A stretch of 64,000 nucleotides of DNA from Nitrosopumilus sp. (GTDB taxonomy: Archaea > Thermoproteota > Nitrososphaeria > Nitrososphaerales > Nitrosopumilaceae): contig OY759726.1 in assembly GCA_963662625.1 (NCBI GenBank), forward strand, positions 1,184,001-1,248,000. The letters are read 5' to 3'. Of this stretch, positions 10,200 through 12,911 are shown piece after piece. The position numbers and the translations under genes are program-made. A model generated the notes under the pieces. The model saw only the letters and a list, made by a program, of their open reading frames with translations, had not been told where the DNA came from and searched no databases. The stretch's first letter is position 1; the number at the start of each line of letters is the position of its first letter.

Positions 10200-10263
10200 T
10201 CCCGCGCAATACCGCGGTTCCTACCGCGATATCGCGAAAACACGCGCGATCGCGCGAGCCATG

Positions 10264-10293
10264 CCTAATAGTCTGTTGCCTAATAGTCTGTTG
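10264..10293. repeat. 15-bp tandem duplication CCTAATAGTCTGTTG x2
   Basis: Exact copies at 10264-10278 and 10279-10293, directly at the IS110 left junction. Confidence 0.95.
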
Positions 10294-10329
10294 AACACAT
10301 GATAACCACCCAGGCGTAGTTGCCCCGAT

Positions 10330-10443
10330 GGATCGACCCCTGGTAGCGCGTGGGCCTGGCGCCCTTTCTGTTGAATGGGGCAATCCGAGCTGCTGTGTCA
10401 CTGGGCTTCGCGCCCTGATAGGTGTGTGCAGCTTCCGATCCGT
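10330..10443 (+). ncRNA. Candidate IS110 bridge RNA (target-binding and donor-binding loops)
   Basis: Two parallel modules GGGC-N5-GCCC-T-N-[7-nt guide]: TCTGTTG (10367-10373) matches the target flank and ATAGGTG (10418-10424) matches the right end plus core; outer stems CCCC/GGGG and AGCTGC/GCAGCT; structure deduced by eye. Confidence 0.7.
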
Positions 10444-10473
10444 CAGACATCCGAAAGGAGGTGATAGGAAAGG

Positions 10474-11565
10474 ATGAGAAAGACAAGCATAGGGATAGAC
10501 ATAGGGAAGAGAAAGTGCGACGCGTGCGTGGTGGACGGGAACGGGAAGGTTCTCGAGAGGGGGCAGTACCCCAACACCCGGGACGGCGCGGCGAAGTTCG
10601 CAGGGGTGATGGCGCGCAGGTACCTGGGCGGCGGCCCCTGCAGGGCCGCCTGCGAGACGACTGGCAACATGTGGAACAAGACGTTTGACGCCTTCGAGGC
10701 GGCCGGGATCGACATCAAACTGGCCAACACGTACAAGATGGCCCTGATAGCCAGGACCGCCAAGAAGACCGACAGGATTGACGCAGAGAAGATAGCGCAG
10801 GTGCTGAGGATGGACATGATACCGGAGTGCTACGTCCCCCCGGGCCACACCAGGGGGATACGCGCGATGGTCAGGCAGAGGGTGAGGCTGGTCCAGGACA
10901 GGACGCGCGTGATAAACCGCGTCCACAGCCTCCTGGACCGCCACGACATCCAAATGGACGCCTCCACCATGCACTCCGAAAAGGCCTTGGGGCAGCTGGA
11001 ATCTGCGGAGCTGGGCTCTGGGCACGACGGGTTGGTCCTGGGCCAGTGCGCCCGGCAGGTGAGGCACCTGACGGAGGAGATCTCCGTGACGGAGGGGCTC
11101 CTCGAGATGGAGGCCGCCCACAACGGTGACGCGAGGCTGCTGGCCAGCATGACCGGCGTCGGCACGTTCACCGCGGTGCTGATGGCCTCCGAGATCGGGG
11201 ACGTCTCCAGGTTCAGGGGGCCAAGGCAGATGGTGTCGTGGGCCGGGCTGTGCCCGGTGGTCTACCAGTCGGGGAACCAGCTGTACACGGGGAGGATCAA
11301 GAAGATCGACTCCAGCAGCCTGGTCAACTGGGCCATGTGCGAGGCCGCGAACACCGCCGTGCGGCACGACGCCAGGATGGAAGCCGTGTATGCGTCCGCG
11401 CGCCGGAGGCACGCGGACAAGCATGGGCCGGCAATCATAGTGGTGGCCCACAAGATGGTCACCATAATGTGGCACATGCTGACCACCAAGACACCCTACG
11501 AGTCCCGCAACGAGAGGCTGTACCGGCGCAAGCTGGCCAGGATGGAGAAGGCGCGCCGGGGGTGA
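10474..11565 (+). CDS. IS110-family recombinase/transposase (DEDD RuvC-like + Tnp20 domain)
   Basis: IGIDIGK, ACETTG, KKTDRIDA, MTGVG and GLCPVVYQSG (catalytic Ser) motifs; GGAGGTGA RBS upstream. Confidence 0.95.
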   Translation: MRKTSIGIDIGKRKCDACVVDGNGKVLERGQYPNTRDGAAKFAGVMARRYLGGGPCRAACETTGNMWNKTFDAFEAAGIDIKLANTYKMALIARTAKKTDRIDAEKIAQVLRMDMIPECYVPPGHTRGIRAMVRQRVRLVQDRTRVINRVHSLLDRHDIQMDASTMHSEKALGQLESAELGSGHDGLVLGQCARQVRHLTEEISVTEGLLEMEAAHNGDARLLASMTGVGTFTAVLMASEIGDVSRFRGPRQMVSWAGLCPVVYQSGNQLYTGRIKKIDSSSLVNWAMCEAANTAVRHDARMEAVYASARRRHADKHGPAIIVVAHKMVTIMWHMLTTKTPYESRNERLYRRKLARMEKARRG

Positions 11566-11609
11566 CCCCCCGCGCTGCCCGCATCCCGGATCGTCTTGCC
11601 AGCGCTAGC

Positions 11610-11616
11610 TATAAAT
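11610..11616 (+). promoter_or_regulatory. Outward-facing TATA box in the IS110 right end
   Basis: TATAAAT in an otherwise GC-rich end; predicted TSS about 11638. Confidence 0.5.
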
Positions 11617-11768
11617 CTCATGCCATGCAACCCAGTCACGGATCGGAAAAACCGCGGGATGCATTGCGGCAACTACGCCTGAGTGGTTAACATAGGTGCA
11701 CAACTGCCAGAAATTGCCGGGTCTAAACAGTTGAACCCCCGGCCCAACCATGTCAAACCGAAAAGGCC

Positions 11769-12911
11769 TTGGATCACGGCCGCGCACCGTCCCCGTTGGC
11801 TGCGACCGACAACGAGAAATACGTCAGGCGCGGGAGGGGCCTGGCTGTGTCGTATGACCCCGGCTGGGAGGACGACCTGAGGGAGGCCAACGCCGGCAAG
11901 GAGGGCGCCCCGTTCAGGTACGCCGGGGCGCTGGTCATGGCCGCCGCCGCGGTGAGGACCTCGCTCGGGGTCCAGTACAGGCAGCTGTCCGGGCTCCTCG
12001 CGGGGATGCTGGGGGGGCACGGCGCGCCGCACTACTCGGTGCTGGCCAGGAGGATGGCGCGCCTCGACGTGGACATCGGCGGGGGAGTCGTCCGCGTCTC
12101 CGGCGGCGGCCAGCCCATGACCCTGCTGGCCGACGCCACGGGCCTGAAGCAGTGCAACCGGGGCGAGTGGATACGGAAGAAGTGGAAGGTGAAGCGCGGG
12201 TTCGTCAAGCTGCACCTGCTGGCCGACGCCGACACGAAGAAGATACTCGCGGCGGTGGTGACCGACGACAGGACGGGCGACTCCCCCATGCTGAAGGAGC
12301 TCCTGGGAACCGTGGCGGGGCCGCGTGGCGGGAAGCCGGACGGGAAGCCGGCGGGGAAGCAGGGCGGGAAGCAGGACAGGCGCATGGCGCTGATCCGCGG
12401 GAAGGCAGCCGCGGCGGGGGATCCCCTGCCGCGCGTGGGCTCGCCCCCGCCCAACCTCCTCGCGAGCGGCGTGGCGCCGCTCGCGCTGCAGTGCGGCCAG
12501 CCGCCCGGCTCCCACGGGGCGCGCCTGATCGCGGACGGGGCGTACGCGTCGCGGGACAACATGCGGAGGTGCCGCGACATGGGCGTGGGGCCTATCATCC
12601 CGGTCAAGGTGGCGTCCACCGCCAGGGGCAAGGGCGCCGGCGGCGCGTGGGGCGAGGCGGTGCGGGACCAGCTGGGGGGCGGCCCGGAGGCGCGCGTCGA
12701 CAGGATGGGCACGAGGGAGAGGGAGGAGAACGTCCGGTACTGGAAGGCCAGGAAGGGGTACGGCAGGAGGTGGCTGATCGAGATAATCATATCGGCGTTC
12801 AAGAGGATGTTCGGGGACCACGTGCACTCGCGCAGGTGGGAGAACATCGTGCAGGAGGTAAGGCTCAGGGTGGCCCAGTACAACCGGTGGGCGGGGGAGG
12901 CGGGGGCGTAG
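11769..12911 (+). CDS. IS5-family DDE transposase (IS903-like group)
   Basis: LLADATGLK, KRGFVKLHLLAD, LIADGAY and YGRRWLIEIIISAFKRMFG motifs. Confidence 0.9.
   Translation: MDHGRAPSPLAATDNEKYVRRGRGLAVSYDPGWEDDLREANAGKEGAPFRYAGALVMAAAAVRTSLGVQYRQLSGLLAGMLGGHGAPHYSVLARRMARLDVDIGGGVVRVSGGGQPMTLLADATGLKQCNRGEWIRKKWKVKRGFVKLHLLADADTKKILAAVVTDDRTGDSPMLKELLGTVAGPRGGKPDGKPAGKQGGKQDRRMALIRGKAAAAGDPLPRVGSPPPNLLASGVAPLALQCGQPPGSHGARLIADGAYASRDNMRRCRDMGVGPIIPVKVASTARGKGAGGAWGEAVRDQLGGGPEARVDRMGTREREENVRYWKARKGYGRRWLIEIIISAFKRMFGDHVHSRRWENIVQEVRLRVAQYNRWAGEAGA

What the first reader, a model, noticed from the sequence alone, without database searches (positions are those of the whole stretch)
11610..11698. 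Split ncRNA that can be assembled only on the excised circle
The right end has TATAAAT (11610-11616), predicting a TSS near 11638. The sequence starting there, ACGGATCGGAA (11638-11648), is the exact reverse complement of TTCCGATCCGT (10433-10443), which lies just after the donor loop in the left end. On a circular intermediate, a transcript would read right end > TG core > left end. It would fold the 26-bp IRs into a hairpin with the donor junction in its loop and close an 11-bp terminal stem around both guide loops. This couples RNA completion, and perhaps transposase expression, to excision.
Basis: inference. Interest (0 to 1): 0.8.

Follow-up and report, generated by a model that had tools for sequence, protein, structure and literature searches.

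The report
Archaeal bridge-RNA element with split leader
An archaeal jumping gene of the IS110 family carries a promoter-like box in its right end, followed by a short strand that matches the closing strand of the guide RNA in its left end, so a longer guide RNA may be made only once the two ends are joined.

Summary
TATAAAT (11610-11616), the 11-nt perfect complement (11638-11648 against 10433-10443), the 26-nt inverted repeats and the TG core are all present.

The element (10294-11696) is an IS110-family insertion sequence. Its left end encodes a two-loop bridge RNA, and it sits in the terminal repeat of an IS5-like element.

In homologues, the TATA box lies 23-28 nt before the right-end strand (A). 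Strand A stays complementary to the left-end strand (C) through compensatory changes: 87.4% of cells paired against 79.0% shuffled, 9 of 11 pairs changed on both sides. In this genome TATA-like hexamers peak 29 nt before start codons, so a transcript would start at A.

"Only on the circle" is too strong. The left end has its own closing strand B (10327-10335). B pairs with the same strand C and has stronger RNA-type support: 29 G·U against 6 A·C, versus 11 against 14 for A:C.

Best reading (0.45): the right-end promoter reads across the joined ends, and A:C is an alternative closing helix. No RNA data exist. One DNA contig joins the right end back to the left end. This is a new variant of a known kind.

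The parts
10284..10291 (+). Left half of the target (TAGTCTGT). It is the outer part of the terminal repeat of an IS5-like element.
   Evidence: Present in uninterrupted IS5-like ends. Conserved to the left of all 8 genomic copies.
10292..10293 (+). Core dinucleotide TG, left copy.
   Evidence: The empty site has one TG. The occupied site has TG at both junctions.
10294..11696 (+). IS110-family insertion sequence, 1403 bp.
   Evidence: 8 full-length copies in the genome share exactly this span. Pfam domains.
10299..10324 (+). Left subterminal inverted repeat.
   Evidence: (I1).
10327..10335 (+). Strand B: the 5' strand of the closing helix that lies wholly within the left end. It pairs with 10436-10444.
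   Evidence: RNAalifold on 30 left ends. 6 of the 8 pairs have changes on both sides. 29 G·U against 6 A·C.
10337..10380 (+). Target-binding loop.
- Outer stem: 10337-40 with 10377-80.
- 5' guide: 10342-50.
- Inner hairpin: 10351-65.
- 3' guide: 10366-75 (TTCTGTTGAA), which equals the left flank, the core and the first two bases of the element.
   Evidence: In homologues the 3' guide matches each element's own left flank (read).
10387..10435 (+). Donor-binding loop.
- Outer stem: 10387-93 with 10428-35.
- 5' guide: 10394-10401.
- Inner hairpin: 10402-16.
- 3' guide: 10417-24 (GATAGGTG), which equals the right end plus the core.
   Evidence: The 3' guide follows the right-end terminus in homologues: ATAGATG, ATGGATG.
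10433..10443 (+). Strand C: the shared 3' strand. Positions 1-11 pair with A. Positions 4-12 pair with B.
10457..10464 (+). GGAGGTGA, a conserved Shine-Dalgarno-like box before the start codon.
   Evidence: Conserved in the alignment of homologues.
10474..11565 (+). Transposase (bridge recombinase), 363 aa.
   Evidence: DEDD_Tnp_IS110 6e-28 and Transposase_20 6.5e-22.
11603..11616 (+). Conserved box ..AGCGNTAGC-TATAAA(T); candidate archaeal promoter.
   Evidence: Conserved in homologues at 49-72% protein identity. Sits at promoter distance from A.
11638..11648 (+). Strand A: the right-end 11-mer complementary to C. The predicted transcript start falls at 11637-11640.
11668..11693 (+). Right subterminal inverted repeat.
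11697..11698 (+). Core dinucleotide TG, right copy.
11699..12911 (+). Rest of the targeted IS5-like element, with its DDE transposase ORF at 11769-12911.
   Evidence: Its end is multi-copy in the genome. Pfam DDE_Tnp_1 1.1e-21.

Best explanation
Window 10294-11696 is an active-looking archaeal IS110-family element.

- The left end encodes a complete bridge RNA. It has a target-binding loop and a donor-binding loop, closed by helix B:C.
- The right end carries a full archaeal promoter, the TATA box at 11610-11616. Transcription from it would start at about 11637-11640, which is exactly at strand A.
- In the chromosome this transcript runs out of the element.
- Once the ends are joined (excised circle or head-to-tail copy), the transcript runs through the right repeat, the TG junction and the left repeat into the bridge RNA and the transposase gene.
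- In that long RNA, A pairs with C instead of B. This ties the right-end leader to the 3' border of the bridge RNA and leaves the two guide loops free.

So high expression, and a distinct fold of the guide RNA, would be coupled to the joined state. Low-level left-end-only transcripts would use B:C.

Shown: the element, the guides, the target, the conserved box, and the conserved and covarying A:C and B:C complementarity.

Inferred: that the box is a promoter, where the RNA starts, that A:C forms in cis, and what it does.
For: 1. Family and guides.
- Pfam domains. Two-loop consensus structure with covariation.
- The 3' guide of the target loop equals each element's own left flank plus core plus AA. 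The 3' guide of the donor loop equals each element's right terminus.

2. Promoter.
- A T[AT]TAAA hexamer starts 23-28 nt before the best right-end partner of C in 23 of the 53 elements that could be anchored (57 examined). With looser boxes chosen after looking, the count is 28.
- In this 63% G+C genome, TATA-like hexamers peak at -32 to -27 before the ATG of long ORFs: 100 hits in two bins against 2-18 in each other bin. TATAAA and TTTAAA peak at -29.

3. A:C pairing.
- On 24 aligned elements, 87.4% of cells are paired against 79.0% in shuffles (0 of 500 shuffles reach it).
- 9 of 11 pairs have changes on both sides (3 of 500 shuffles reach it).
- Slid controls give 26-46% paired.
- The three pairs that B cannot make (TTC with GAA) also covary (helix 1).
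- Where B differs from the exact complement of C, A equals the complement of C at 20 positions and equals B at 6.
- A separate clade at 43-46% identity keeps the pairing with other letters.

4. Geometry. The distance from A to the right terminus is 56-61 nt in 14 of 14 elements, and the minimum-energy fold of all 14 virtual joined RNAs contains 8-12 A:C pairs.

5. Joined ends as DNA. One DNA contig in run X1 (depth 21.6; the unique flank has depth 35) joins 11699 back to 10292. That junction is absent from the assembled genome.
Against: - There are no RNA data. No RNA run is listed.
- A:C lacks the RNA signature that B:C has. A:C has 11 G·U against 14 A·C cells in 17 unique pairs. B:C has 29 against 6 in 25. 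Eight of the 14 A·C cells lie at the two outermost positions, which may lie upstream of the start.
- L109 and L142 have two central mismatches in A:C, while B:C covaries there.
- Within this genome, 4 of 8 copies changed C without a compensating change in A, and 5 of 8 have CATGAAT instead of TATAAAT. These are the diverged copies, some with broken frames.
- A clade at about 46% identity has no such box or strand.
- The inverted repeats show mostly transversion mismatches: 42, against 16 G·U-type and 9 A·C-type. The hairpin is therefore not visibly selected as RNA.
- The joint includes one base more on the right-end side (11699) and both core bases on the left-end side (10292-93), so 3 letters more than the precise junction. 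It rests on one contig whose letters I could not see.
- Sequences in the alignments are related, so the shuffle counts overstate significance.
Confidence: 0.45

Rival explanations
1. A small RNA made from the right-end promoter of integrated copies acts in trans. Its 5' strand A (and the right repeat) pairs with strand C (and the left repeat) of left-end or read-through transcripts. This either assembles a two-piece bridge RNA or blocks the closing helix or the transposase leader, as IS antisense RNAs do.
For: - It uses the same promoter and covariation evidence as the best explanation.
- In the chromosome the promoter necessarily fires outward.
- A:C (11 bp) plus the repeats (26-43 nt) would give a stable intermolecular duplex.
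- A:C and B:C compete for the same strand, which suits a regulator.
Against: - There are no RNA data.
- No terminator or defined 3' end was seen for such an RNA; the right-end-only RNA folds no better than shuffles, z 0.0.
- The repeats show no RNA-type substitution pattern.
- The known biology of the family already supplies a role for reading across joined ends.
Confidence: 0.2
2. A and C pair within the full-length transcript of the integrated element, as a contact between the 5' leader and the 3' trailer. The TATA-like box is not a promoter.
For: - Both strands lie on the same strand of the integrated element, 1.2 kb apart.
- Low-level read-through transcripts across whole IS621 elements are reported (PMC13626964, passages read).
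Against: - It does not explain why a TATA box is conserved at 23-28 nt before A, the distance used by this genome's promoters.
- It does not explain why the A-to-terminus distance is held at 56-61 nt.
Confidence: 0.1
3. The complementarity is kept at the DNA level. Three copies of one protein-binding motif (A and B direct, C inverted) change together with the recombinase; or the strands pair in a single-stranded DNA intermediate. No A:C RNA helix forms.
For: - G·U-type and A·C-type mismatches are equally common in A:C, 11 against 14, as expected for DNA.
- A and B are near-identical direct repeats.
- The element has unusually long subterminal repeats that behave as DNA features.
Against: - A follows the complement of C rather than B at 20 of 27 informative positions.
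- A extends the complementarity into TTC/GAA, where B has no likeness, and those pairs covary.
- B:C clearly behaves as an RNA helix.
- The two sites lie at unequal distances from the ends (about 140 and 49 nt), which is odd for synaptic binding sites.
Confidence: 0.15

Closest known systems
IS621 / IS110-group bridge RNA elements (Durrant et al. 2024, PMC11208160, passages read; Hiraizumi et al. 2026, PMC13626964, abstract and passages read)
   Same: - DEDD plus Transposase_20 recombinase.
- ncRNA in the left end, upstream of the gene, with a target loop and a donor loop.
- Dinucleotide core and no target duplication.
- Expression boosted when the ends are joined.
- Weak expression from integrated copies by read-through.
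   Different: - In IS621 the joined ends rebuild a sigma-70 promoter (-35 in the right end), and the RNA starts in the left end.
- Here the whole archaeal promoter-like box and the predicted start lie about 60 nt inside the right end, so the RNA would contain the right end, the junction and both 26-nt repeats.
- Its first 9-11 nt would pair with the 3' strand of the bridge RNA.
- The subterminal repeats are long (26 nt or more) instead of 2-3 nt.
IS1111-group elements and seekRNA (Siddiquee et al. 2024, PMC11187229, passages read; IS4321/IS5075 are cited there and in PMC11208160)
   Same: - Long subterminal inverted repeats.
- Targeting of a repeated sequence, here the terminal repeat of another transposon. 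By recall, IS4321/IS5075 target Tn21-family repeats.
- A circle with a promoter across the junction.
   Different: - IS1111 elements carry the guide RNA in the right end, downstream of the gene.
- Here both loops are in the left end, and only a short 5' strand and the promoter are in the right end.
Junction promoters of circle-forming IS elements (IS911, IS30, IS492; recalled, not read here)
   Same: The logic is the same: transposase expression is switched on by joining the ends.
   Different: - Those are split bacterial promoters.
- No structured RNA with a helix shared between the two ends is described for them, as far as I recall.

Membership tests
IS110 family (bridge recombinase elements) | Recombinase with an N-terminal DEDD RuvC-like domain and a C-terminal Transposase_20 domain. 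| tested here: met
   PF01548 6e-28 (residues 6-156) and PF02371 6.5e-22 (residues 220-306). D9, E61, D100, D103 and S225 are invariant among 5 homologues. Their equivalence to the IS621 catalytic residues is recalled, not tested.
IS110 family (bridge recombinase elements) | Site-specific insertion without target duplication. One core dinucleotide in the empty site, one at each junction. | tested here: met
   The empty site reads TAGTCTGT-TG-CACAAC in 7 of 11 IS5-like ends. TG is at both junctions of the 8 copies.
IS110 family (bridge recombinase elements) | ncRNA with two internal loops whose strands match the target flanks and the element termini. | tested here: met
   RNAalifold gives 27 pairs, 14 of them with compensatory changes. 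Guides match flanks and termini here and follow them in homologues. No Rfam family matched.
IS110 family (bridge recombinase elements) | Circular intermediate with abutted ends. | tested here: inconclusive
   One DNA contig in 1 of 4 runs joins 11699 to 10292, 3 letters more than the precise junction. The junction is absent from the assembly. It could be a circle or a tandem.
IS110 subgroup (as opposed to IS1111) | Guide RNA in a long left end, with only 2-3-bp subterminal repeats. | tested here: inconclusive
   The RNA loops are in the left end (180 nt, against 131 nt for the right end): met. The repeats are 26-43 nt: not met.
IS1111 subgroup | Subterminal inverted repeats of 7-17 bp and guide RNA in the right end. 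| tested here: not met
   The repeats are present but longer. Both guide loops are in the left end. Only the promoter-like box and strand A lie in the right end.
Archaeal TATA/BRE promoter | A/T-rich box about 26-30 nt upstream of a purine start, and use by the host. | tested here: inconclusive
   The box and its distance fit the genome-wide pattern and are conserved. The stretch upstream of the box does not fit the BRE consensus as I recall it. No transcript data.

The most novel reading that the evidence does not exclude
The guide RNA gene of this archaeal clade straddles the two ends of the element. Its promoter and first helix strand are in the right end; its loops and last strand are in the left end.

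The RNA would therefore exist in two forms. A short left-end form is closed by B:C and made at low level from the chromosome. A long joined-end form is closed by A:C. The choice of helix would report to the recombinase whether the element is integrated or excised, for example by biasing towards insertion.

The clade would also be a living intermediate between IS110-type elements (RNA in the left end) and IS1111-type elements (RNA in the right end).
Probability: 0.25. Interest if true: 0.8.

Novelty: new variant of a known kind. Interest (0 to 1): 0.6.

Why it matters
Bridge RNAs are being developed as programmable recombination tools, and how their natural expression and direction (excision versus insertion) are controlled is an active question.

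If the reading holds, three things follow:
- It would show how an archaeon achieves the known "express only when the ends are joined" logic. An archaeal promoter cannot be split the way a bacterial -35/-10 promoter can.
- It would add a new structural feature: a closing helix shared between the two ends of the element, competing with an internal one. That is a simple RNA sensor of DNA topology.
- It offers a concrete intermediate for the proposed move of the guide RNA between element ends in IS110 and IS1111 evolution (PMC11208160, passage read).

Even if A:C proves unimportant, these appear to be the first archaeal (Nitrososphaerota) bridge-RNA elements with defined guides and a defined target, the terminal repeat of an IS5-like element. 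My three literature searches found no description of archaeal IS110 promoters or of a guide RNA spanning the junction.

Tried and rejected
- Rfam, at permissive E-values, gave only a trypanosome snoRNA hit at E 4.3, far below threshold. There is no curated family here.
- tblastn against plasmids found only distant (34% or less) haloarchaeal and bacterial IS110 genes. These were not used further.
- No RNA holder was listed for the stretch. The four runs laid are DNA contigs, so they say nothing on expression.
- My first motif-based extraction of strands was too strict and was replaced by an anchor-plus-RNAduplex approach.
  - In that approach L107 and L091 were anchored on the wrong stem, and L066/L141 found another site. 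L066 was redone. L091 was dropped from alignment A3.
  - c006, c008, L102 and L117 could not be anchored.
- In alignment A2 four rows (L070, L099, L100, L090) are misaligned in the right end. They were left in the count, where they lower the percentage paired. They were dropped and examined by duplex instead.
- I tested whether the 26-nt repeats behave as an RNA hairpin. They do not: transversions dominate.
- I looked for a conserved pairing of B with the right-end stretch 11658-11666, as an inner extension of the repeat. It is seen in this element and in L062 only, so I rejected it as a general feature.
- Single-sequence folding statistics are weak: z -1.57 for the left-end RNA and 0.0 for the right-end RNA. 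I place no weight on them.
- A possible weak second promoter (TGATAA at 10300, 27-28 nt before B) is only my reading and was not tested.
- In my notes, left-end coordinates were 1 too high because I misread a ruler line.
- Structure prediction, complex prediction and the large protein searches were not needed and not used.

Full report
**What is there.** The ORF at 10474-11565 (+) encodes a 363-aa protein with the two domains of IS110-family recombinases: DEDD_Tnp_IS110 at 6e-28 and Transposase_20 at 6.5e-22. The genome that holds the window is a single 1.86-Mb contig with 63.4% G+C. It has 8 full-length copies of the same 1.4-kb element, at 100, 97, 97, 94, 91, 85, 85 and 84% identity to the window copy, plus fragments.

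- Aligning the 8 copies with their flanks fixes the ends.
- Likeness starts at ..TAGTCTGTTG|AACACATG.. and stops at ..AACATAGGTG|C..
- The DNA to the right of the window copy is the end of a multi-copy IS5-like element. Its ORF at 11769-12911 hits DDE_Tnp_1 at 1.1e-21.
- Of the 11 ends of that IS5-like element that I printed, 7 read ..TGT-TG-CACAACTGCC.. without the IS110-type element.
- So the target is TAGTCTGT-TG-CACAAC, the core is TG, there is no target duplication, and the element proper is 10294-11696 (coordinates).
- Record titles of homologous loci name Nitrosopumilaceae, Cenarchaeum and Nitrososphaerales genomes. The host is therefore an archaeon, which has TATA-box promoters.

**The bridge RNA in the left end.** An RNAalifold consensus of 30 left ends (alignment A3) gives 27 pairs, 14 of them with compensatory changes.

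| Helix | Window coordinates |
|---|---|
| Closing helix (strand B with strand C) | 10328-10335 with 10436-10443 |
| Target-loop outer stem | 10337-40 with 10377-80 |
| Target-loop inner hairpin | within 10351-65 |
| Donor-loop outer stem | 10387-93 with 10428-35 |
| Donor-loop inner hairpin | within 10402-16 |

The loop strands behave as guides:

- The 3' strand of the first loop (TTCTGTTGAA, 10366-75) equals the left flank, the core and the first two bases of the element. In homologues it equals each element's own left flank. For example, flank ..GTCGTG goes with guide ..GTCGTGAA, ..ATCATG with ..ATCATGAA, and ..TAGTTTG with ..TAGTTTGAA.
- The 3' strand of the second loop (GATAGGTG, 10417-24) equals the right terminus plus the core. 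It follows that terminus in homologues (ATAGATG, ATGGATG).
- The 5' strand of the second loop (TGTGTCAC) is the complement of core plus left terminus, less one base. It follows changes there (AATAC goes with GTAT).

This is the architecture described for IS621 (PMC11208160, passages). No Rfam family matches.

Every element of it is in the sequence:

- TATAAAT at 11610-11616.
- ACGGATCGGAA (strand A) at 11638-11648, an exact complement of TTCCGATCCGT (strand C) at 10433-10443.
- 26-nt inverted repeats at 10299-10324 and 11668-11693.
- The TG core.

It forms 11 A:C pairs at the outside and a long repeat hairpin with the junction in its loop.

**Is the right-end box a promoter?** RNA data are lacking, so this rests on comparison.

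- Homologues were collected from 8 of 61 related genomes, from 80 loci of the species-representative genomes and from 2 close metagenome contigs.
- I examined 57 elements: 49 loci plus the 8 genomic copies. 53 could be anchored.
- For each I asked, without alignment, which stretch within 230 nt after the gene pairs best with the 14 nt that follow the donor-loop stem.
- In 23 of the 53, that stretch begins 23-28 nt after the start of a T[AT]TAAA hexamer. With looser boxes chosen after looking, the count is 28.
- The box and the bases before it (..AGCGNTAGC-TATAAA) are the best-conserved part of the right end among homologues at 49-72% protein identity.
- In this G+C-rich genome, TATA-like hexamers are rare. 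They pile up at -32 to -27 before the ATG of long ORFs: 100 hits in those two 3-nt bins against 2-18 in each other bin, over 1736 ORFs.
- TATAAA and TTTAAA both peak at -29. This pattern fits leaderless mRNAs.
- Applied to 11610, it predicts a start at about 11637-11640, the first bases of strand A.
- Against: five of the eight genomic copies read CATGAAT instead. These are the diverged copies, several with broken frames, and nearly all their differences are A>G and T>C. I read this as decay.

**Is the A:C complementarity selected?**

- On an alignment of 24 elements running from the target loop to the right end (A2), the 11 pairs are 87.4% paired against 79.0 ± 1.1% in shuffles (0 of 500 reach it).
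- 9 of the 11 pairs have changes on both sides (3 of 500 reach it).
- The covariation score is 0.395 against 0.261 (0 of 500 reach it).
- Sliding one strand by 1-3 columns drops pairing to 26-46%.
- Four misaligned rows were left in and count against the pairing.
- Examples: AGACCGGAA/TTCCGGTCT, GGATCAAAA/TTTTGATCC, GTGGATCAGAG/CTCTGATCCAC, GTGAGACGGA/TCCGTTTCAT.
- A clade at 43-46% identity keeps the pairing with quite different letters..CAGATAAAGT/AGCTTTGTCTG.., and GGATAAAGT/AGCTTTATCC in L086.
- The distance from A to the right terminus is 56-61 nt in 14 of 14 elements tested, and all 14 virtual joined RNAs have 8-12 A:C pairs in their minimum-energy fold.

**What limits the claim.**

- *B competes with A.* The left end has its own partner for C. 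Strand B (GATGGATCG, 10327-10335) pairs with 10436-10444, and 6 of its 8 pairs have changes on both sides.
  - Counting unique sequence pairs, B:C has 157 Watson-Crick, 29 G·U, 6 A·C and 8 other cells in 25 pairs. That is the asymmetry expected of an RNA helix on this strand.
  - A:C has 158 Watson-Crick, 11 G·U, 14 A·C and 4 other cells in 17 pairs. It shows no such asymmetry.
  - Eight of the 14 A·C cells lie at the two outermost positions, which may lie upstream of the start.
  - So the left end alone encodes a complete bridge RNA, and A:C and B:C exclude each other.
- *A is not merely a copy of B.* Where B departs from the exact complement of C, A equals the complement at 20 positions and equals B at 6, with 1 neither, over 19 unique triples that are not independent. 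A also pairs with TTC (10433-35), which B cannot reach, and those pairs covary (helix 1).
- *Exceptions.* L109 and L142 have two central A:C mismatches while B:C covaries. A clade at about 46% identity has neither box nor strand A.
- *The repeats look like DNA features.* Their mismatches are mostly transversions: 42, against 16 G·U-type and 9 A·C-type, in 21 unique pairs.

**Joined ends as DNA.**

- Laying the contigs of four DNA runs of one study on 10200-11800 gave one contig in X1 (depth 21.6; the unique left flank has depth 35) that goes from 11699 back to 10292.
- The precise junction would be 11698 to 10294, so this form has 3 more letters. I could not see them.
- Neither form occurs in the assembled genome.
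- It shows that a right-end-to-left-end junction exists in the sample, as a circle or a tandem. It says nothing about RNA.

**Most likely mechanism (confidence 0.45).**

- The right end holds a complete archaeal promoter that fires outward.
- Only when the ends are joined does its transcript run into the bridge RNA and the recombinase gene.
- This achieves, with a promoter type that cannot be split, what bacterial relatives achieve by rebuilding a -35/-10 promoter at the junction (PMC11208160; PMC11187229; PMC13626964).
- In that long RNA the 5'-terminal strand A takes strand C from B. The right-end leader with the repeat hairpin then becomes a separate arm, and the two guide loops stay intact.
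- Transcripts of integrated copies use B:C. These could come from read-through, as shown for IS621 in PMC13626964, or from a weak box in the left repeat.
- Rivals: trans-acting right-end RNA (0.2), DNA-level motif (0.15), leader-trailer contact in the integrated transcript (0.1).

**Comparison and novelty.**

- The element is a member of the IS110 family by every feature I could test. It mixes subgroup traits: guide loops in the left end as in the IS110 group, and long subterminal repeats and a transposon-end target as in IS1111.
- The junction-dependent expression logic is known.
- Three things are not described in the papers found by my searches, of which I read passages only, with supplements closed. 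These are a full promoter inside the right end, a predicted start 60 nt before the junction, and a covarying helix between the two ends that competes with an internal one.
- I rate it a new variant of a known kind, interest 0.6.

Noticed in passing
window 10262-10291: There is a perfect 15-bp tandem duplication, TGCCTAATAGTCTGT x2, directly left of the element. It duplicates the flank plus the outer 8 nt of the IS5-like terminal repeat, which is the left half of the target (D4). It may be a footprint of an earlier insertion or excision, or replication slippage. Unexplained.
   Followed up: no
window 10294-11696 against genome copies L004-L008; table 1: Differences between the window copy and the older copies are almost all A>G and T>C. 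In run X1, 39 + 34 of the 88 listed places are of these kinds. The older copies are G+C-enriched, which also turned TATAAAT into CATGAAT. This is either a strong AT-to-GC mutation bias on dead copies or a recent arrival of an AT-richer element.
   Followed up: partly
window 11563-11565 and copies L002, L003, L004, L006, L007, L008: The TGA stop of the window copy is CGG in 6 of 8 genomic copies. Their open frame (404 codons) runs on through most of the right end, including the TATA box and strand A.
   Followed up: no
L007 (genome copy at G000:C1:1699624-1701046): The two guide strands of the target-binding loop are replaced by mutually complementary sequences (..TATGGTG.. / ..CGCCATG..). The loop would collapse into a stem. 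Even so, the copy sits at the usual TAGTCTGTTG site.
   Followed up: no
window 10372-10445: In the four DNA runs the donor-binding-loop segment has far higher summed depth than the rest of the element (for example X4 718 against about 8-95). It continues upstream into unrelated letters at 10372 in all four runs (tables 2 and 7). Other elements with a different target loop but nearly the same donor loop seem abundant in the samples, which fits modular guide loops.
   Followed up: no
window 11699-12911 and at least 7 other places in the genome: The IS5-like element whose left terminal repeat is the insertion target is itself multi-copy. In the window and in L002 the IS110-type element sits at its left end in the same orientation as its transposase gene. 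The right-end promoter would therefore read into that gene.
   Followed up: no
window 10300-10305: TGATAA, inside the left inverted repeat, lies 27-28 nt before strand B. That is the same distance as TATAAA before strand A. It may be a weak second promoter whose transcript would start at B. This is my reading only.
   Followed up: no
window 11541 to 10372 (table 5): One contig in run X4 (depth 16.9) goes back from 11541, near the end of the recombinase gene, to 10372 in the target loop. This is a rearranged or deleted derivative of unknown form.
   Followed up: no
L073 and L097: L073 has a G-rich insertion of about 20 nt between the two loops. L097-type elements show a tandem duplication of the right terminus (GGGTGTTTTTACATGAAT x2).
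   Followed up: no
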